Shown in pieces: positions 3,358 through 43,450 of a stretch of DNA of 64,000 nt. Numbering within the stretch: the first letter of the stretch is position 1; every line of letters starts with the position of its first letter. Source of the DNA: Bacteroidales bacterium (lineage in GTDB: Bacteria; Bacteroidota; Bacteroidia; Bacteroidales; WCHB1-69); contig JAZLHE010000044.1 in assembly GCA_045616665.1 (NCBI GenBank), positions 1,944 to 65,943 on the forward strand, written 5' to 3'. A program made the translations under genes and the position numbers. The notes under the pieces were generated by a model, which was given only the letters and a program-made list of their open reading frames with translations, made no database searches and was not told the origin of the DNA.

Positions 3358-4698
3358 TTATTCATTGCCGATTAAAGCGTCCAAAGAAGCTTTTGCCGTT
3401 AAATAGTTAAATAGAGATTGGCAATAGGTAAGACGAGTGGTGGTAAGCATCAATTCGGCGGCGTTGAGGTCAATCCAGGTGTTTAGGCCGACTTCGTATT
3501 GTTTTTGTGCGATTTCGTGTGTCTTTTCTGCCTGTAGCATTGTTTCCTTGTCAGATACAAGGTCTTCCAACGACTGCTGCATATCATTCAGGTAGCTTTG
3601 CGCTCCAAGACGAAGATTGCGTTCCACATCAAGGCGTTGGTCTTCCATATTTTGGATGTTCAGGTTGGTTTGTTTGAGTTGATAGGATGTGGCTGCCCAG
3701 GAAACGATGGGAACAGACAAGCCCAGACCGATGACCGAATACGGAAAATTGTTGAATTCACCGCCAGTGTCACCCATACCGTTATACATTAGACTTCCTG
3801 TAAAGGCCAAATTGGGACAAGCGGAACTCTTGATAATCTTTTTGGATTGCTGCAGTTCCTCGATTCCAAGGTCCAATTGACGCAAGGAACTGTTGTTGTC
3901 CAAACTGATTTGATCCAGCTGCGGAACGAAGGAATTCAAGATTTCTTCTTCATAATCATATAGCTCGCCGTCAAAAATTACAGGTTCATTCACATCCATA
4001 CCCAAAATGATCTTGAGTCTCATATAGGCTAAGGTGGTGGCTTTGGCGGCAGAAGTCACGTCGGGGCGCAAATTCTGTAATGCCACGTCGGAACGGAGTT
4101 TCTCAAAATCGGATACTAAGCCCTGATTGTACTGTTTCGTCACCAAGTCGTTGTTGGCCTTTGAATTTTCGTAACTTTGCAGCAGTACCTCGTGTCCCTG
4201 TTTCGCTACCAGATAAGTGTAATAGGCCTGCTTGATTTGATTGATCAACTCCAATTTGGAGGAACGGGCGGATTCCATAGCCAGTTCCACGTCCATTTGT
4301 GATAATTTCAGACTGGTCCACAAGGCTGGAGCAATGACAGGCAGTGACAAAGATGCGCCTACCGAATAGTTATGGTCTTTACCTACCTTGATATTCATAT
4401 CCTGACCTCCCATGCTCATAGCCATACTCTGTTTTAAAAGGGTGTATTGATAAGAGCCGGACAATGACACATTGGGGAAAAGTGACACAATCTGTTCTTT
4501 CTTGTATTCTTGTTTAATCTGAATGTCTCGTCCCGCAATGCGAATGGAAGGACTTTCGCTGAGTCCTATTTCAATGGCTTTTTGCAAATTGATGTGTACG
4601 GAATCTCTTTTTTCCTGAGCAATGATTAGTCCTGTTGAGAGAAACAGTAGGCTCGCAATCAAGCTGAATCTTGAAATTTTCTTGAGGTAAATTGTCAT
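3358..4698 (-). CDS. TolC-family outer membrane efflux protein
   Basis: 446 aa with a signal peptide and two-repeat OEP-like sequence. First gene of the efflux operon. Confidence 0.85.
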   Translation of the reverse strand: MTIYLKKISRFSLIASLLFLSTGLIIAQEKRDSVHINLQKAIEIGLSESPSIRIAGRDIQIKQEYKKEQIVSLFPNVSLSGSYQYTLLKQSMAMSMGGQDMNIKVGKDHNYSVGASLSLPVIAPALWTSLKLSQMDVELAMESARSSKLELINQIKQAYYTYLVAKQGHEVLLQSYENSKANNDLVTKQYNQGLVSDFEKLRSDVALQNLRPDVTSAAKATTLAYMRLKIILGMDVNEPVIFDGELYDYEEEILNSFVPQLDQISLDNNSSLRQLDLGIEELQQSKKIIKSSACPNLAFTGSLMYNGMGDTGGEFNNFPYSVIGLGLSVPIVSWAATSYQLKQTNLNIQNMEDQRLDVERNLRLGAQSYLNDMQQSLEDLVSDKETMLQAEKTHEIAQKQYEVGLNTWIDLNAAELMLTTTRLTYCQSLFNYLTAKASLDALIGNE

Positions 4699-37416: not shown

Positions 37417-38658
37417 ATGCCGCTTCAATTTAAAAGACACCTGCTTTCCAACGGTCTTCGCCTGATTGTTCATGAAGACCATACGACACCATTGGCTTCT
37501 TGCAACGTGGTGTATAATGTCGGTTCGCGTGACGAATCGCCCGAAATGACCGGTATGGCCCATCTCTTTGAACATTTTATGTTTACCGGTTCCAAAAATA
37601 TCGAGGATTATGATGCCCAACTCCAAAAAGTAGGTGCCATCAATAATGCCTATACCACCCAGGATATCACGCATTATTATATTACGTTGCCGGCCGTGAA
37701 TATCGAACACGCTTTGTGGTTGGAATCCGACCGGATGATGGAATTGGCTTTCCAACAATCCAAGTTGGATGTGCAAAAACAAGTGGTCATTGAAGAATTT
37801 AAAGAGAATTTTCTAAATCGTCCATACGGCGATATGTGGATGCTTTTCAATGAATTCTTTTTTCAGCAACATCCCTATCAATGGTTGCCTATTGGTAAGG
37901 AAATCAGTCATATAGAAAAAGTAACGATGGAAGATATGAAGAAGTTTTTCTATCATTTTTATCGTCCGAATAATGCGGTGCTGACGGTGTCTGGGAATGT
38001 CTGTTTTGAAGAAATTGTTCCTTTGGTTGAAAGGTGGTTCGGGGATATTCCATCCGGAGTTCCCGTGCATAAAAATTTCCCGAAAGAACTGCCGCAGTCA
38101 CAAAGCCGCTTTATGGAAGTGTCTCGAGATGTTCCTGCCGATATGCTCTTTAAGGCTTGGCCTACTTGCGGCCGTTTAGACCGGGATTTTTATGCATACG
38201 ATTTGTTGTCGGATCTGTTTGGTAGCGGACAGTCTTCATTTTTGTATAAAGAGCTGGTTCTTCAAAAGCATATTTTTACAGATATCAGTGCCTATGTGAC
38301 AGGAACACTTGATCCGGGCGCATTTGTCGTGGGCGGTCGGCCGGATGAAAATGTCAAAATTGAAGATGCAGATCAGATTTTGTGCGATTATTTGTATCAG
38401 CTTCCTGAAGATTATATTCAATCCGGGGATTTACAAAAGGTAAAGAATAGGGTAGAGTCGATTATTTTACAGAATGATATTAAGATTGAAGATCGTTCTT
38501 CATCGTTGGCCGTGTCGGAATGTTTCAGTTGTGTGGAGGATTTTAATGATGAAACGCAAAGATATTTTGCCGTGAGCGACGAACAGATCAATCATTTGTG
38601 TCGGCAATTGTTCCGGAAAGAACAGGAAACGACAATGTATTATCGAGGAAAGTCATAA
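37417..38658 (+). CDS. M16 family (pitrilysin/insulinase-like) peptidase
   Basis: ATG 37417. Inverted zinc motif HLFEH (HxxEH). Confidence 0.85.
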   Translation: MPLQFKRHLLSNGLRLIVHEDHTTPLASCNVVYNVGSRDESPEMTGMAHLFEHFMFTGSKNIEDYDAQLQKVGAINNAYTTQDITHYYITLPAVNIEHALWLESDRMMELAFQQSKLDVQKQVVIEEFKENFLNRPYGDMWMLFNEFFFQQHPYQWLPIGKEISHIEKVTMEDMKKFFYHFYRPNNAVLTVSGNVCFEEIVPLVERWFGDIPSGVPVHKNFPKELPQSQSRFMEVSRDVPADMLFKAWPTCGRLDRDFYAYDLLSDLFGSGQSSFLYKELVLQKHIFTDISAYVTGTLDPGAFVVGGRPDENVKIEDADQILCDYLYQLPEDYIQSGDLQKVKNRVESIILQNDIKIEDRSSSLAVSECFSCVEDFNDETQRYFAVSDEQINHLCRQLFRKEQETTMYYRGKS

Positions 38659-38692
38659 ATAATCGGAATCGTTTTGAAATTCGTTAAACATA

Positions 38693-38739
38693 GATACTGG
38701 GCAAAAGTTGTGTTTTTTTTCAAACTTTTGCCCAGTATC
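38693..38739 (+). repeat. 47-bp hairpin element, copy 1 (17-bp perfect stem, T8-containing loop)
   Basis: gatactgggcaaaagtt-gtgttttttttca-aacttttgcccagtatc. Identical to 40223-40269. Confidence 0.95.
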
Positions 38740-38746
38740 CATGTTT

Positions 38747-40171
38747 TTAGTTGAATATATCATTCAGATTTACAGTATGTTGGGCTAAATTGCTATATGA
38801 ATTTTCTATTAATCCAAATGTTGTAATGACGACAAACTGTATTCCCTTTTTGGAAGCGCTTTCTTCTTGAAAAACGTTACCTCTATTGATAATTTTGAAA
38901 TATTCGTTTTTCTTTAAAGAATAGAGTCCGTGTGAATATTTCATCTCGCAAATGTTGCAAATGTTATCTGCACGATCTATGACGAGGTCAATTTGAGCGC
39001 CGTGTTCGCTGTCTTTGCTTCGCCATGAATAATATTCAGAATGGATTCTATCGATGCCCAATGCTTTTTTGATTTGCCGGATGTGTGCCATGCATACTCT
39101 TTCGAATGCCAGTCCGTACCAATTGTTTTGTTTGGAACTGAGAAGTCCGTCTGACCAGAAATGGGCGTTTGTGCTTTTTTGTTTTGCGAAAGTCAGATAG
39201 AAAATGGTAAAAAAGTCAATGATTTGGTATAATCCTCCGTTGACCTTCGCTACTTTGCTAAAAGTGTTATATTGTCGAATAAATCCGCAGTTTTCCAAGT
39301 CTGAAAGCACGTTCCCAAAATGTCCGTTGTCCTTGAGTTTCAGTTTGTAGGCTAATTCTTTTCTGGAAATTCCGCTTTGACATTTGGCCAAAGTTTCTAC
39401 AACGTTGATGTAATGTTCTGGATTTTTGAATAGGGAGGCGTACAGCCGATTGTATTCCTGTTTTAATTCGGCATCTTCTGAAAAAAACAACTGGTCGATA
39501 TTGATGGCGGGACTTAATTTGACGTTTAGCAGACTTAGGTAATAGGGGATTCCGCCTAATGCCATATAGATGTGCAGAATATTGAGCCGACTCCATCTGG
39601 CTCCTTTACTTTTCAAGTATATTTCCGTTTCGCGAAGCGTGAAGGGGTGAAGACGTATCTCGTGGGTGAGCCGATTGTGTAGGCCACCGTGGTTGTTGAT
39701 GATGTTGCGCATAATCCACGAAGTGGCGGAACCGCATATAATGAAAAAGATACGGTTTTGTTTTGATGCCCAGCTGTTCCAAAAATAATCCAATGCGTGG
39801 ATAAATCCGGATTTTGTCGTGTCGAAGCATGGCAGTTCGTCAATAAATATGACACAACGTTTTTTTCCTCGTTTTAATTTTTCGGTAAGGAGCTCCCGCA
39901 AAGCACCGAAAAGTCCCATCCAGGTTTTCGGACAACTCTTTTTATAACCGTACATAACCAACGAAGTGTAAAAAGCCTCAACTTCTTCTTCTTTTTTTCC
40001 TCCGATGATGCCGGAAGTGGAAAACGCATAGTTGCATTTGAAAAAAGAGTCTATCAAAAAAGTTTTTCCCACACGTCTGCGCCCGTAAACAGCGACAAAT
40101 TCGGCCTTGCCAGACTGCATGTATTGAGTCAGTTTGTCCTGTTCCCCACTACGTCCTATTAGTTGATTCAT
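38747..40171 (-). CDS. Orphan ATPase (archaeal-type AAA ATPase + DUF234-like C-terminus)
   Basis: Start at MNQLIGRSGEQDKL (ATG 40171), 20 nt after a -7 box. Walker A GRRRVGKTF and Walker B VIFIDELP. AT-rich. Confidence 0.75.
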   Translation of the reverse strand: MNQLIGRSGEQDKLTQYMQSGKAEFVAVYGRRRVGKTFLIDSFFKCNYAFSTSGIIGGKKEEEVEAFYTSLVMYGYKKSCPKTWMGLFGALRELLTEKLKRGKKRCVIFIDELPCFDTTKSGFIHALDYFWNSWASKQNRIFFIICGSATSWIMRNIINNHGGLHNRLTHEIRLHPFTLRETEIYLKSKGARWSRLNILHIYMALGGIPYYLSLLNVKLSPAINIDQLFFSEDAELKQEYNRLYASLFKNPEHYINVVETLAKCQSGISRKELAYKLKLKDNGHFGNVLSDLENCGFIRQYNTFSKVAKVNGGLYQIIDFFTIFYLTFAKQKSTNAHFWSDGLLSSKQNNWYGLAFERVCMAHIRQIKKALGIDRIHSEYYSWRSKDSEHGAQIDLVIDRADNICNICEMKYSHGLYSLKKNEYFKIINRGNVFQEESASKKGIQFVVITTFGLIENSYSNLAQHTVNLNDIFN

Positions 40172-40190
40172 ATTTGTATATTTGGTGACG

Positions 40191-40198
40191 CAAAAATA
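40191..40198 (-). promoter_or_regulatory. -7 box (TATTTTTG on minus strand) for the DUF234-type ATPase
   Basis: The reverse complement of caaaaata matches TAnnTTTG. It lies inside the region bracketed by the 47-bp repeats. Confidence 0.5.
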
Positions 40199-40222
40199 CA
40201 AATTAATCCGTATAAAAACTAC

Positions 40223-40269
40223 GATACTGGGCAAAAGTTGTGTTTTTTTTCAAACTTTTGCCCAGTATC
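40223..40269 (+). repeat. 47-bp hairpin element, copy 2
   Basis: Base-for-base identical to 38693-38739, in the same orientation (the asymmetric loop reads the same). Confidence 0.95.
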
Positions 40270-40365
40270 TGGAAAATAAATTTGCATATTTTGTTGATTT
40301 ATAGTATTTTATGATTTTTTGAAATTTTAAAATCAAATATCGAAAATCAAACAAAATTAGTCTTG

Positions 40366-41469
40366 TCATATTGATAAAATCTCATTGACGATCAAATCAA
40401 TAGCATCTGGTTTGGCCAATTTGAGAATGTTTTCTCCCAAACTTTGGCATTTGGCCTCATCCTGGATTAACGCAAGCAATTGATCCATAAGTTGGGTTTC
40501 CGCCTGACTGTCTGGAATCAAGATGGCCGCATCCTTATCTACCAACGCCTGCGCATTTTTTGTCTGGTGGTCTTCGGCCGCGAAGGGGAACGGCACTAAA
40601 ATCGTAGGAGCTCCCACAACGCATAATTCGGCAATGGCCAAGGCACCGGCGCGGGAAACAATGATGTCGGCCATACTGTAGGCGTCGTTCATATTCTTGA
40701 TGAAAGGCACGATTTTGATGCGTTCGTTTTGGCGGGCCAGCAGTTCGGGTGAAATGGTTTTGTAGAACAATTCTCCCGTTTGCCACAGAACCTGTACGCC
40801 CATTTGGTCCAGTCGGTCCAGACCTTTTTCCATACACTTGTTGATGGTTTTGGCGCCGAGACTTCCGCCGACGACTAAAATAGTCTTTTTTTCTTTAGAA
40901 AAGCCAAAATACTCGTATGCTTTGTCGTCTTTGCGTTTCATATTCAAGATTTCGGCACGAATGGGATTCCCGGTCATTACGATTTTGTCGGCTGGGAAGT
41001 ACTTGTCTAAGCCATCGTATGCAACACAAATCTTTTTTGCTTCTTTAGCCAAGATCTTATTGGTTACGCCAGGATAGGAGTTCTGTTCCTGCAATAGGGT
41101 GGGAATGTCTAAGCTGTTGGCGGCTTTCAAGGCAGGACCGCTGGCAAATCCACCAACACCGATAGCCATATCGGGTTTGAAGTTGCGGATGATTTCCTTG
41201 GCGTGGCGCAAAGTCTTGAGCAACAAAAATGGAAGCTTGATATTGCTCAGAACGGCTTTGGGCGAGAAACTCCGGTTGATACCGTAAACATCCAACCCTT
41301 CGATGGGATAGCCGGCTTCCGGCACGCGTTTCATTTCCATTTTTCCATTGGCGCCGATGAACAGGATGTCGGCATCGGGGATGGCTTTCTTTAATCCGTT
41401 GGCAATGGCGAGGGCTGGAAATATATGGCCGCCGGTTCCGCCACCTGATATGATAAATCTCTTTTTCAT
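40366..41469 (-). CDS. murG: Undecaprenyldiphospho-muramoylpentapeptide beta-N-acetylglucosaminyltransferase
   Basis: Start at MKKRFIISGGGTGGHIFPA (ATG 41469). GT28 N- and C-domains. The longer ORF would overlap guaA. Confidence 0.88.
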   Translation of the reverse strand: MKKRFIISGGGTGGHIFPALAIANGLKKAIPDADILFIGANGKMEMKRVPEAGYPIEGLDVYGINRSFSPKAVLSNIKLPFLLLKTLRHAKEIIRNFKPDMAIGVGGFASGPALKAANSLDIPTLLQEQNSYPGVTNKILAKEAKKICVAYDGLDKYFPADKIVMTGNPIRAEILNMKRKDDKAYEYFGFSKEKKTILVVGGSLGAKTINKCMEKGLDRLDQMGVQVLWQTGELFYKTISPELLARQNERIKIVPFIKNMNDAYSMADIIVSRAGALAIAELCVVGAPTILVPFPFAAEDHQTKNAQALVDKDAAILIPDSQAETQLMDQLLALIQDEAKCQSLGENILKLAKPDAIDLIVNEILSI

Positions 41470-43365: not shown

Positions 43366-43370
43366 CTTAA

Positions 43371-43409
43371 AAAAAAGAAGGATTCGCTGATGAATCCTTC
43401 TTCTTTTTT
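43371..43409 (+). terminator. Terminator hairpin after tRNA-Leu
   Basis: gaaggattc-gctgat-gaatccttc followed by ttcttttttt. Confidence 0.6.
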
Positions 43410-43411
43410 AC

Positions 43412-43450
43412 AAAAAAAAAAGCTGCCTCGAAAGACAGCTTTTTCTTTTT
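43412..43450 (-). terminator. Terminator hairpin after the HU gene
   Basis: On the minus strand: gctgtc-tttcga-ggcagc followed by a T10 run. Confidence 0.55.

What the first reader, a model, noticed from the sequence alone, without database searches (positions are those of the whole stretch)
38693..40269. Promoter-bearing orphan ATPase gene bracketed by two perfect 47-bp hairpin copies: looks like a cassette inserted into a terminator hairpin
GATACTGGGCAAAAGTT-GTGTTTTTTTTCA-AACTTTTGCCCAGTATC occurs at 38693-38739 and, base-for-base identical and in the same orientation, at 40223-40269, which is 1,530 bp apart. Between the copies lie only the AT-rich DUF234-type ATPase gene and its own TAnnTTTG promoter. 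Deleting one copy plus the intervening DNA would leave the convergent M16 peptidase and murG genes separated by a single hairpin, a normal bidirectional terminator layout. A 47-bp perfect duplication is far longer than typical target-site duplications. It resembles cassette capture at a palindromic site (attC-like logic) or recombination between REP-like hairpins. No recombinase is present in the cassette.
Basis: partly seen in the sequence, partly recalled or inferred. Interest (0 to 1): 0.6.

Follow-up and report, generated by a model that had tools for sequence, protein, structure and literature searches.

The report
Defence-gene cassette flanked by cognate palindromes
The two identical 47-bp hairpins are real, but rather than a host terminator they are the DNA site that the enclosed ATPase-nuclease (an untested anti-phage candidate, PDC-S27) appears to recognise, and the gene plus one hairpin comes and goes as a 1.5-kb unit between related strains.

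Summary
Observation confirmed. The 47-mer occurs exactly twice in 64 kb, 1,530 bp apart, around one promoter-bearing gene.

Interpretation partly right. Related strains carry the predicted empty site with a single hairpin. The insert's synonymous divergence (dS 0.25-0.32) is well below that of its flanks (0.45-1.7). So it has moved between lineages into the same site.

The hairpin is probably not a resident terminator:
- The nearest outgroup has a bare 22-nt M16/murG junction.
- The gene is PADLOC PDC-S27: a STAND/ORC-like AAA+ ATPase, a winged helix and a PD-(D/E)xK nuclease.
- In about 150 homologous loci, 71-79% have a palindrome of the same geometry just upstream of their own promoter. The half-site is GC[G/C]AAA at a fixed distance from the dyad.
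- At least 13% carry a second cognate copy at the stop codon, often as an exact 45-58-bp direct repeat.
- The variable half-site bases covary best with residues 281-284, at the start of the predicted winged-helix recognition helix.

Best reading: a single-gene cassette with a cognate protein-binding palindrome, gained and lost by recombination between palindrome copies. The enzyme responsible is not identified. I found no description of this architecture. Interest is moderate to high.

The parts
40223..40269 (.). Palindrome copy on the 5' side of the ATPase gene (upstream of its promoter). It has 17-bp arms and a 13-nt centre; the half-site is CTGGGC-AAA.
   Evidence: Exact match and inverted repeat I8. 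This is the position where 60/76 and 49/69 homologous loci carry a palindrome.
40172..40222 (-). Cassette leader, with the Bacteroidetes-type -7 box TATTTTTG at 40191-40198 (minus strand), 19 nt before the ATG.
   Evidence: Sequence. TAnnTTTG lies 15-30 nt before the ATG in most of the 125 of 152 homologous loci that have the box, against a background of 0.03 per 70 nt.
38747..40171 (-). PDC-S27 gene, 474 aa. It encodes a STAND/ORC-like AAA+ ATPase (Walker A G30-T37, Walker B D111-E112), a winged helix (about residues 263-317) and a C-terminal PD-(D/E)xK nuclease motif (E357, D395, E409-x-K411).
   Evidence: Pfam. PADLOC PDC-S27, E 7.7e-184, full length. Invariant columns. AlphaFold model with pLDDT 85.8. 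Foldseek hits to 2qen, Apaf-1/CED-4/NLR, Avs3 and ORC/Cdc6. dN/dS about 0.05-0.08.
39290..39334 (-). Codons for residues 280-294, covering the predicted winged-helix recognition helix (model helix 283-294; sequence KDNGHFGNVLSDLEN).
   Evidence: Residues 284, 282 and 281 rank 1, 2 and 4 of 338 variable residues for covariation with the palindrome half-site. A control with 231 other traits put these residues in the top three only 8 times.
38693..38739 (.). Second, identical palindrome copy. It starts 7 nt after the ATPase stop codon and 34 nt after the M16 stop codon.
   Evidence: Exact match. A cognate 3' copy is present in at least 19 of 145 homologous loci, often overlapping the stop codon.
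38740..40222 (-). The 1,483-bp segment that, together with one palindrome copy, is absent from the solo-palindrome alleles of related strains.
   Evidence: Junction comparison of occupied (L001, L004-L007, L010) and empty (L002, L003, L011, L012) contigs.
38659..38692 (.). A 34-nt spacer between the M16 stop codon and the palindrome. It is part of the roughly 155 nt that are absent from the pristine junction of the nearest outgroup.
   Evidence: L178 junction: M16 stop, 22 nt, murG stop. L178 is an outgroup by M16 and murG divergence.
40270..40343 (.). About 74 nt between the 5' palindrome copy and the ancestral 22-nt spacer. On the + strand it holds a -7-like box (TAAATTTG, 40277-40284) and a dead ATG. 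It may be the remnant of an older cassette leader.
   Evidence: Absent in L178 but present in the solo-palindrome alleles. The remnant reading is an inference.
37417..38658 (+). Flanking M16 peptidase gene (host).
   Evidence: Pfam. P0121 is 100% identical.
40366..41469 (-). Flanking murG gene (host).
   Evidence: Pfam Glyco_transf_28 and Glyco_tran_28_C.

Best explanation
The 1,530-bp unit is a single-gene cassette of the PDC-S27 family, an uncharacterised 'phage defence candidate'. Its protein combines a STAND/ORC-like AAA+ ATPase, a winged helix and a PD-(D/E)xK nuclease.

The 47-bp palindrome is not a host terminator. It is the family's cognate cis-element: a two-fold symmetric site (half-site nnnGC[G/C]AAA at a fixed distance from the dyad). 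The winged-helix recognition helix of the cassette's own protein most likely binds it.

One copy sits just upstream of the cassette's own promoter (40223-40269), where it most plausibly acts as an autoregulatory operator or insulator. A second copy follows the stop codon (38693-38739).

The two direct copies are the substrate and the product of the recombination that removes and adds the cassette. Recombination between them deletes the gene and leaves the solo palindrome seen in related strains. Re-acquisition happens at a solo palindrome, helped by flanking homology.

Shown: the repeat, the empty and occupied alleles, a cassette younger than its flanks, the family-wide palindrome and its geometry, cassette boundaries at the palindrome, and covariation between protein and site.

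Inferred: physical binding, operator function, which recombination pathway acts (RecA-type between 47-bp repeats, or catalysis at the palindrome), and the defence role.
For: Repeat and hairpin.

Empty versus occupied alleles in one species, with the predicted single hairpin.

Absence in outgroups:
- The nearest outgroup L178 has a 22-nt junction without a hairpin.
- L013/L014 and L015 also lack it.

The cassette is younger than its surroundings:
- ATPase dS is 0.25-0.32, against 0.45-0.71 (window vs L004) and 1.2-1.7 (vs L001) for flanking genes.
- Nucleotide identity jumps at the left palindrome.

Family identity and fold.

Family survey:
- An upstream palindrome is present in 60/76 and 49/69 loci, against a background of 0.057-0.058 per 200 nt.
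- Motif spacing peaks sharply at 21-26 nt upstream, while the background is flat.
- The half-site GC[G/C]AAA lies in register with the dyad.
- 95% Watson-Crick symmetry with all four pair types at every position.
- A promoter box follows the palindrome in 125/152 loci.

Second cognate copy:
- 19 pairs.
- Exact flanking direct repeats of at least 20 bp in 29 of 151 loci, several of them hairpins of 45-58 bp.
- Arms diverge less than centres, 7.2% against 18.2%, p = 2e-5.

Cassette limits: homology between related cassettes in different contexts runs from the palindrome's outer edge to the stop codon or to the 3' palindrome.

Cognate recognition:
- Residues 284, 282 and 281 are the top covarying positions.
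- The signal is specific when compared with 231 control traits.
- Relatives 87-89% identical differ by K/R at residue 284 and by C/G in the site.
Against: - No binding, cleavage or excision has been observed.
- Covariation is partly confounded by shared ancestry.
- This particular cassette (more than 90% identity) was found only at the M16/murG site, so its movement here could be ordinary homologous exchange between lineages.
- In L001 the boundary pattern points to import of a chromosomal fragment rather than of a circle. The outer arm of the 3' copy is diverged, while the 5' copy and about 130 bp beyond it are conserved.
- How the palindrome first reached a site without one is unexplained.
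- A PD-(D/E)xK nuclease is not a recombinase.
- Palindrome symmetry fits a DNA/RNA hairpin as well as a dimeric protein site, so a terminator or RNA-stability role is not excluded.
- The background used for hairpin frequency is mostly coding DNA.
- Cognate pairs were selected on arm similarity, which biases the arm-versus-centre comparison.
Confidence: 0.6

Rival explanations
1. M16 and murG originally shared a bidirectional terminator hairpin. A promoter-bearing cassette was captured at it by attC-like recombination or by a transposition that duplicated the 47-bp target.
For: Empty alleles have exactly one hairpin between the convergent genes. The copies are identical direct repeats. The hairpin is stable and sits after three stop codons.
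Against: - The nearest outgroup and more distant relatives have no hairpin at this junction.
- The same kind of palindrome accompanies the gene family in unrelated contexts, even where there is no 3' copy.
- There is no T-tract after the stem and no call by the terminator scan.
- In other loci the direct repeats extend 15-25 nt beyond the hairpin, or include only part of it, which is unlike a fixed target duplication (L049, L021, L093).
- Some up/down pairs have flipped centres (L045).
- No attC features are present, and there is no integrase or transposase in the cassette or among the immediate neighbours.
Confidence: 0.1
2. An autonomous selfish element. The ATPase-nuclease recognises its own palindrome, perhaps extruded as a cruciform, and cuts there. 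This would drive either excision and integration of a gene-plus-palindrome circle, or homing into solo-palindrome alleles. Staggered cuts at the base of the palindrome would explain exact duplication of the whole palindrome.
For: - The protein's recognition helix covaries with the site.
- The nuclease motif is invariant.
- Recurrent exact 45-58-bp repeats bracket the gene in many independent cassettes.
- Cassette ends lie at palindromes, and the stop codon abuts or overlaps the 3' copy.
- The cassette is less diverged than its flanks, at the same site, in three lineages, with apparent co-transfer of adjacent DNA.
- One 1,531-nt contig is circularly permuted: leader, gene, palindrome, promoter (L097).
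- L109 shows a reciprocal-hybrid pattern at symmetric positions.
Against: - There is no biochemical evidence.
- Both copies stay intact in occupied alleles, so the element would have to avoid cutting itself.
- This cassette was not found at any second locus.
- Most family members have only the upstream copy.
- The permuted contig is a single case and could reflect a tandem array or assembler behaviour.
- STAND-like ATPase plus nuclease is a typical immune-effector architecture.
Confidence: 0.15
3. There is no mobility beyond deletion. The gene with two regulatory or terminator hairpins was inherited from the clade's ancestor. The empty alleles are simple deletions between 47-bp direct repeats. 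The low divergence of the insert reflects constraint or gene conversion.
For: A 47-bp perfect direct repeat is enough for recombinational or slippage deletion. All three lineages with the hairpin also have the gene at the same site. Strong purifying selection acts on the protein.
Against: - Synonymous divergence of the ATPase is 2- to 5-fold lower than that of five flanking genes, and it is star-like rather than following the host tree.
- Related cassettes occur in different genomic contexts, with homology ending at the cassette edges.
- Occupied and empty haplotypes differ more next to the site than in the neighbouring genes (versus 99.4% identity).
Confidence: 0.1
4. A mini-replicon remnant. 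The ORC/Cdc6-like ATPase with winged helix acts as initiator, and the A/T-centred inverted repeat next to its gene acts as its origin, as in archaeal origin-initiator pairs. In this model an excised circle would replicate.
For: The fold resembles ORC/Cdc6. Inverted half-sites flank an A/T-rich centre directly upstream of the gene. Site and protein covary as cognate partners.
Against: The similarity is to the general STAND/ORC AAA+ plus winged-helix fold, not to ORC specifically. The best match is the uncharacterised PABY2304. The fusion to a nuclease and the single-copy chromosomal context are unlike initiators. There is no evidence for free circles.
Confidence: 0.03

Closest known systems
PADLOC 'phage defence candidate' PDC-S27 (an ATPase fused to a PD-(D/E)xK domain; predicted by gene embedding in defence systems; bioRxiv 10.1101/2024.01.29.577857; surveyed in PMC12988326 and PMC13356809)
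   Same: The protein matches the PDC-S27 model over its full length, E 7.7e-184. It shares the domain content and the abundance in rumen and gut Bacteroidales.
   Different: The papers I read treat it as a protein family only and report no experimental test. I found no description of flanking palindromes, of the cassette structure or of presence/absence alleles in the passages read.
Integron gene cassettes with attC sites
   Same: It is a compact single-gene unit whose ORF ends at or inside a palindromic site. Sites vary in sequence between cassettes but keep their structure. Some loci hold adjacent cassettes each with its own site (L043). Empty and occupied states differ by one unit.
   Different: - The palindrome lies mainly at the 5' end, upstream of an internal promoter.
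- It is a perfect palindrome without extrahelical bases or GTTRRRY core sites.
- There is no IntI/attI platform, and the cassettes sit between housekeeping genes.
- The site covaries with the cassette's own protein.
REP/REPIN-RAYT systems (REPtrons)
   Same: A gene is flanked by palindromic repeats whose sequence is specific to that gene copy, which implies recognition by the encoded protein.
   Different: The encoded protein is an AAA+/winged-helix/PD-(D/E)xK fusion, not a Y1 HUH transposase. The palindromes are not dispersed: there are 2 copies in 64 kb, and they occur only next to the genes in the flanks surveyed.
Archaeal Orc1/Cdc6 with their adjacent origins (inverted ORB elements around an A/T-rich centre)
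   Same: An AAA+ plus winged-helix protein is encoded next to an inverted-repeat site with an A/T-rich centre. The fold is similar, and paralogue-specific pairing of site and protein is implied by covariation.
   Different: No evidence for replication. A C-terminal nuclease is present. These are bacterial chromosomal intergenic sites. The half-site and geometry are different.
Free-standing homing endonuclease genes
   Same: A nuclease gene with presence/absence polymorphism at one intergenic site. It is less diverged than its flanks across lineages, with apparent co-transfer of adjacent DNA.
   Different: The recognised site is not disrupted by the insertion; it is duplicated instead. A large ATPase module is present. 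Cleavage was not tested.
STAND-type antiviral NTPases (Avs) and autoregulated defence genes
   Same: A STAND-like NTPase is fused to a nuclease effector. A palindromic site sits upstream of the gene's own promoter, as expected for autorepression of a toxic gene.
   Different: There is no C-terminal sensor repeat domain. The second site lies at the 3' end, and the gene behaves as a cassette.

Membership tests
PADLOC PDC-S27 (candidate defence gene) | Full-length match to the PDC-S27 profile | tested here: met
   PDLC04984, E 7.7e-184, residues 1-473 on profile positions 1-473 of 474.
PADLOC PDC-S27 (candidate defence gene) | ATPase domain fused to a PD-(D/E)xK nuclease domain | tested here: met
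   Walker A and B motifs and E357/D395/E409-x-K411 are invariant in 29 sequences. The model shows an alpha/beta C-terminal domain. PMC12988326 describes the same fusion.
PADLOC PDC-S27 (candidate defence gene) | Protects against phage | not testable with these tools
Integron gene cassette / attC | Imperfect palindrome with R''-L''/L'-R' boxes, extrahelical bases and a GTTRRRY core | tested here: not met
   The site is a perfect 17-bp inverted repeat with no bulges. By inspection of the 47-mer, no GTTRRRY is present on either strand.
Integron gene cassette / attC | Located in an array next to intI/attI; usually promoterless | tested here: not met
   The neighbours are M16, a PKD/CHU_C protein, murG, guaA and HU. 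The cassette has its own TAnnTTTG box.
Intrinsic (bidirectional) terminator | G+C-rich stem with a short loop, followed by a T-tract | tested here: not met
   Not called by the scan. The loop is 13 nt, the T-run lies inside the loop, and the flanks after the stem are not T-rich.
Intrinsic (bidirectional) terminator | Terminates transcription in vivo | not testable with these tools
   Needs Term-seq or 3'-end mapping. A stable hairpin 7 nt and 34 nt after two stop codons could still affect 3' ends.
Transposon with target-site duplication | Transposase gene and terminal inverted repeats; a short duplication of fixed length from arbitrary target sequence | tested here: not met
   The single ORF has no transposase domain. 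The duplicated sequence is a conserved family element rather than arbitrary target. Repeat length varies from 20 to about 80 nt between loci.
REP/RAYT (REPtron) | Y1 HUH transposase (RAYT) flanked by REPs that are dispersed through the genome | tested here: not met
   No HUH domain. Only two copies in 64 kb. Extra palindromes in surveyed flanks sit next to extra ATPase paralogues.
STAND / ORC-Cdc6-like AAA+ with winged helix | AAA+ core followed by a helical lid and a winged-helix domain | tested here: met
   Foldseek, probability 1.0, to 2qen, 6mfv, Apaf-1, CED-4, NLR resistosomes, Avs3 and ORC/Cdc6, using a model with pLDDT 85.8.
Homing endonuclease gene | Nuclease that cleaves the empty allele at or near the insertion site | not testable with these tools
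   Only indirect evidence: an invariant nuclease motif, same-site spread and a low dS.
Site-specific integrated element (attL/attR) | Identical direct repeats at both ends and one copy at the empty site | tested here: met
Site-specific integrated element (attL/attR) | A dedicated tyrosine or serine recombinase, in cis or in trans | tested here: inconclusive
   None in the cassette or its immediate neighbours. The rest of the genome was not available.

The most novel reading that the evidence does not exclude
PDC-S27 genes (and perhaps the related, very abundant PDC-S01 ATPase-nucleases) are not only immune genes. They would be a previously unrecognised class of single-gene mobile elements. In this reading the AAA+/winged-helix/PD-(D/E)xK protein recognises its own palindromic end, possibly as a cruciform, and cuts there to excise, integrate or home the gene-plus-palindrome unit. 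That would explain the exact duplication of a whole palindrome, and why these genes are so often found embedded inside other loci.
Probability: 0.15. Interest if true: 0.85.

Novelty: new variant of a known kind. Interest (0 to 1): 0.66.

Why it matters
PDC-S27 and its relatives are reported among the most abundant predicted defence genes in rumen, gut and archaeal genomes, yet nothing is known about how they work or spread.

This locus, together with about 150 homologous loci, gives the family three things:
- A defined cis-element.
- A predicted protein-DNA recognition code that can be tested with a few point mutants (for example N-G-H with GGGC, N-G-K with CTGC, N-G-R with GTGC).
- A natural pair of occupied and empty alleles.

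This turns an anonymous 'ATP-binding protein' into a tractable system for asking two questions: how a single-gene defence candidate is regulated, and how it moves. It also suggests that being 'embedded' in other loci, the very criterion used to predict these genes as defence candidates, may partly reflect cassette-like insertion.

Tried and rejected
- Searches for the 47-mer (exact in species-representative genomes; arms fixed with a free loop in JGI metagenomes and IMG/VR) found nothing. Dispersal of this particular palindrome therefore could not be assessed outside the window's own clade.
- Exact-protein look-ups of the window's ATPase, MurG and M16 (P0121) failed. Relatives had to be reached through homologues.
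- NCBIfam gave no family, and the PDB sequence search gave none.
- Rfam gave only sub-threshold matches to generic miRNA hairpins.
- The sigma-70 and terminator scan was uninformative for a Bacteroidetes genome and did not call the palindrome.
- Target-site duplication was rejected. The repeat is a conserved family element with variable limits.
- A generic abundant terminator motif was rejected. There are two copies in 64 kb, and the motif is specific to the gene family.
- Assembly artefact was rejected, because independent assemblies show the same structure.
- A tyrosine-recombinase (Xer/dif-like) site was considered unlikely. The half-sites are about 27 bp apart, not 6-8 bp; this rests on general knowledge and was not tested.
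- Searches of plasmid and phage records found only distant homologues (26-42% identity) annotated as 'ATP-binding protein'. They add breadth but no mechanism.
- Literature searches for DUF4143, DUF234, COG1672, COG1373 and PDC-S27 found no description of the palindromes.
Full report
**1. The observation**

The 47-mer GATACTGGGCAAAAGTTGTGTTTTTTTTCAAACTTTTGCCCAGTATC occurs at 38693-38739 and 40223-40269. Both copies are on the same strand and have no mismatch. No further copy appears in the 64-kb window even with three mismatches allowed, and none is expected by chance.

Each copy is a perfect 17-bp inverted repeat around a 13-nt centre. It folds far better than shuffled sequence (-32.5 kcal/mol, z = -9.2).

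The 1,483 bp between the copies contain one long ORF on the minus strand (38747-40171). It encodes 474 aa with ATPase_2 and AAA_14 matches and a weak DUF4143 match. A Bacteroidetes-type -7 box (TATTTTTG, 40191-40198) lies 19 nt before the ATG. The flanks are convergent M16 peptidase and murG genes. The description is accurate.

**2. Related strains: occupied, solo-palindrome and pristine sites**

Homologues of the M16 protein led to contigs of three lineages that share this locus. Four complete contigs (L001, L004-L007) carry the ATPase between two hairpin copies, and L010 is cut inside the cassette after the first copy.

Contigs L002, L003, L011 and L012 are more than 99% identical to L004-L007 in the neighbouring genes where compared (L002). 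They carry exactly one hairpin between the same left and right flanks. One and the same M16 protein (P0124) is encoded on both kinds of contig.

The nearest outgroup is L178, with M16 dN of 0.11-0.12 to the clade against 0.05-0.07 within it. It joins the two stop codons by 22 nt that match the last 22 nt of the window's spacer. It has no hairpin and no gene. More distant relatives have an unrelated 75-nt spacer (L013/L014) or overlapping genes (L015).

The solo-palindrome allele is thus not the ancestral state. It carries about 155 nt of extra DNA with the palindrome in the middle.

**3. The cassette is younger than its surroundings**

| Comparison | Insert | Flanking genes |
|---|---|---|
| Nucleotide identity between lineages | 93-94% | 79-90% |
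| Synonymous divergence (dS) | 0.25-0.32 for all three pairs | 0.45-0.71 (window vs L004); 1.2-1.7 (either vs L001), five flanking genes |

The ATPase dN/dS is about 0.05-0.08. The cassette's divergences are star-like and do not follow the host tree. The gene has therefore spread between lineages after they split, always to this site, and it is under purifying selection.

The identity profile rises abruptly at the left palindrome and decays only gradually about 130 bp beyond the right one. In L001 the outer arm of the M16-side copy is as diverged as host DNA (4 of 17 positions), while everything inward is cassette-like.

For this transfer, that pattern fits import of a chromosomal fragment, with one crossover inside the palindrome and one in the murG-proximal flank. 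A free circle is not required.

**4. What the gene is**

The protein matches PADLOC's PDC-S27 model over its full length (E 7.7e-184). PDC-S27 is a 'phage defence candidate' predicted from gene embedding in defence systems. It is described as an ATPase fused to a PD-(D/E)xK domain and is abundant in archaea and rumen MAGs. I found no experimental test of it, and validation is described as pending for most PDCs.

In an alignment of 29 homologues, the Walker A and B motifs and E357, D395 and E409-x-K411 are invariant.

An AlphaFold model (pLDDT 85.8, pTM 0.86) shows an AAA+ core, a lid, a winged helix (helices 270-276 and 283-294, followed by a beta wing) and an alpha/beta C-terminal domain. Foldseek places the first roughly 350 residues with PABY2304 (2qen), the STAND NTPases (Apaf-1, CED-4, NLR resistosomes, Avs3) and ORC/Cdc6.

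**5. The palindrome is a family trait**

I collected 80 loci from species-representative genomes (L016-L095). As an independent replicate I collected 80 more from metagenome contigs (L098-L177). All encode homologues 42-57% identical to the window's protein.

| Measure | Genome set | Metagenome set |
|---|---|---|
| Hairpin (stem ≥10, ≤1 mismatch, loop 7-22) within 200 nt upstream of the ATG | 60/76 | 49/69 |
| Hairpin within 200 nt downstream of the stop | 25/76 | 22/69 |
| Background per 200 nt elsewhere in the same loci | 0.057 | 0.058 |

Further features:

- The arms differ between loci but stay complementary. Watson-Crick pairing is 95%, against 31% when partners are shuffled, and all four pair types occur at every stem position. 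The hairpins were selected for pairing, so this shows diversity rather than discovery.
- Aligned on the dyad, the half-site is GC[G/C]AAA at positions 15-10 from the centre, preceded by variable bases.
- An unbiased scan for a GC-containing 5-mer plus AA and its reverse complement gives a sharp peak at spacings 21-26 nt in the upstream regions. There are 202 hits in 12.5 kb upstream, against 27 hits at those spacings in 339 kb of background.
- The palindrome's inner edge lies mostly 36-64 nt before the ATG.
- A TAnnTTTG box follows in 125 of 152 loci, in most cases 15-30 nt before the ATG.
- Extra palindromes of this type in the flanks sit in front of extra paralogues.
- Homologues at 37-41% identity on a Butyrivibrio plasmid and an Emticicia plasmid have the same arrangement.

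The window's hairpin (half-site CTGGGC-AAA, 25 nt between the 5-mers) is a typical member.

**6. The second copy is also recurrent**

An exact direct repeat of at least 20 bp lies within 400 bp on both sides of the gene in 18 of 78 and 11 of 73 loci. The median longest shared word was about 10.

Many of these repeats are the palindrome itself: L021 (45 bp), L071 (46 bp), L098 (55 bp), L099 (58 bp), L143 (54 bp) and L049 (about 80 bp with one mismatch). At least 19 loci have a cognate palindrome on both sides.

The 3' copy often starts at or overlaps the stop codon. In the 17 pairs that are not identical, the arms differ at 7.2% of positions and the central 15 nt at 18.2% (Fisher p = 2e-5). This suggests that both copies are maintained, although the pairs were chosen on arm similarity.

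A 1,544-nt Logan contig of a 57%-identical homologue begins and ends in the same palindrome (L096). This is expected when a repeat longer than the assembler's word size (probably about 31 nt) brackets the gene.

**7. Cassette limits**

Related cassettes were found in different surroundings. In these pairs, nucleotide homology starts at the outer edge of the outermost upstream palindrome. It ends at the stop codon or at the outer edge of the 3' palindrome. The pairs are L059/L073, L075/L079, L026/L030, L028/L033, L024/L033, L018/L041 and L029/L031.

The unit is therefore: palindrome, promoter, gene, and sometimes a second palindrome.

**8. The palindrome is most likely the protein's own binding site**

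For 83 loci I paired the half-site with the encoded protein and computed mutual information for every variable residue.

- Residues 284, 282 and 281 rank 1, 2 and 4 of 338. They form the start of the predicted recognition helix of the winged helix.
- Residues 279-294 as a group score higher than the rest (Mann-Whitney p = 0.002).
- The pattern reads like a code:

| Residues 282-284 (or surrounding) | Half-site bases |
|---|---|
| N-G-H | GGGC (30 loci) |
| N-G-K | CTGC |
| N-G-R | GTGC |
| S-G-S | TTTCC |
| S-N-G-A | TGCC |

- Proteins 87-89% identical differ by K/R at residue 284 and by C/G in the site.
- With 231 control traits taken from other protein columns, these residues reached the top three only 8 times, and the median rank of residue 284 was 39.

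Shared ancestry inflates such scores in general. It does not explain why the signal localises to the recognition helix.

**9. Synthesis**

The finding is a real, discrete, horizontally exchanged cassette, and the empty-site prediction holds. The hairpin, however, is the cassette family's cognate palindrome and not a captured host terminator.

- The copy at 40223-40269 occupies the canonical position upstream of the cassette promoter. I infer an operator or insulator role there.
- The copy at 38693-38739 is the recurrent 3' copy.
- Two direct copies allow loss of the gene, leaving a solo palindrome. A solo palindrome offers a landing site for regaining it.

Whether that recombination is ordinary homologous exchange or is promoted by the ATPase-nuclease at its own site is open. 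I put 0.6 on the overall model and 0.15 on the stronger claim that the protein mobilises its own gene.

Points against over-reading:
- This cassette is known from one locus only.
- The L001 pattern looks like fragment import.
- First arrival at a site without a palindrome is unexplained.
- No biochemistry exists.

**10. Novelty**

The protein family is known, but only as an untested candidate. In the searchable literature I found no mention of its palindromes, its cassette structure or a site-protein code. Rfam has nothing matching.

I classify this as a new variant of a known kind: a mobile, probably autoregulated, defence-gene cassette. Its logic resembles integron cassettes, REP-RAYT pairs, origin-initiator pairs and free-standing homing endonucleases. 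It fails the defining tests of each family that could be tested.

Noticed in passing
window 40270-40343 (+ strand), especially 40277-40284: Seven nt after the murG-side palindrome, on the + strand, lies a -7-like box (TAAATTTG). It is followed about 25 nt later by an ATG that runs straight into a stop. This is the layout of a cassette leader pointing the other way. It may be the remnant of an older, oppositely oriented cassette. The segment is absent from the pristine junction in L178.
   Followed up: partly
L097 (ENA contig, 1,531 nt; homologue P0011): The contig is circularly permuted. It starts 15 nt before the ATG and ends with the stop codon, the palindrome, a -7 box and 11 more nt. Joining the ends would recreate a normal leader. 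This suggests a cycle in the assembly graph, meaning either a circle or a tandem array. It is a single case.
   Followed up: partly
L023, L026, L030: L023 and L026 are 99.2% identical through the upstream flank and the cassette, but diverge 18 nt after the stop codon. L030 shares the cassette and downstream flank with L023 but not the upstream flank. The breakpoints lie at the cassette edges. This is either real rearrangement or MAG chimeras at a repeated element.
   Followed up: partly
L023, L026, L030, L050, L061, L062, L077, L081, L086, L093 (upstream regions): Two or three tandem copies of the palindrome lie upstream of the promoter. Simple integration at a single site would not produce this, and it is unexplained.
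   Followed up: no
L045 (also L034 and L079 by eye): The upstream and downstream palindromes have the same arms, but the asymmetric centre is inverted ('flip/flop').
   Followed up: partly
L109: The upstream copy has A..A and the downstream copy T..T at symmetric outer positions. This is the pattern expected for the two reciprocal products of a crossover between an A..T and a T..A palindrome.
   Followed up: no
L099, about 4430-4560: The 3' palindrome copy is followed directly by the -7 box and start of a resident lipoprotein-like gene. The 58-bp repeat ends just before the -7 box in both copies. The neighbouring gene therefore appears to use the same palindrome-promoter layout.
   Followed up: no
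L181 (Wolbachia phage WO, MN180249.1), L179 (Butyrivibrio plasmid pNP243), L180 (Emticicia plasmid pEMTOL01): Distant homologues (37-41% identity) outside the Bacteroidales also have palindromes upstream. L179 and L180 have GGCGGAAT..ATTCCGCC. The phage WO copy has tandem units containing CCGCGGTAT, lies between head-tail connector genes and other phage genes, and is annotated 'archaeal ATPase fused to DUF234'.
   Followed up: partly
L043, L044, L077, L085: A second paralogue lies within 3 kb, in tandem in L043, and those of L044 and L077 were seen to have their own palindrome of a different specificity. This hints at small arrays.
   Followed up: partly
L004-L006 versus L002/L003/L011/L012: In the occupied alleles the two copies differ at loop position 18 (G on the M16 side, A on the murG side), while the empty alleles have A. 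Next to the site, occupied and empty haplotypes differ at about 4% of positions, although the neighbouring genes are more than 99% identical.
   Followed up: partly
window 43369-43449: Two adjacent A/T-flanked hairpins lie just downstream of the HU-like gene. They look like ordinary tandem terminators and are unrelated to the 47-mer.
   Followed up: no
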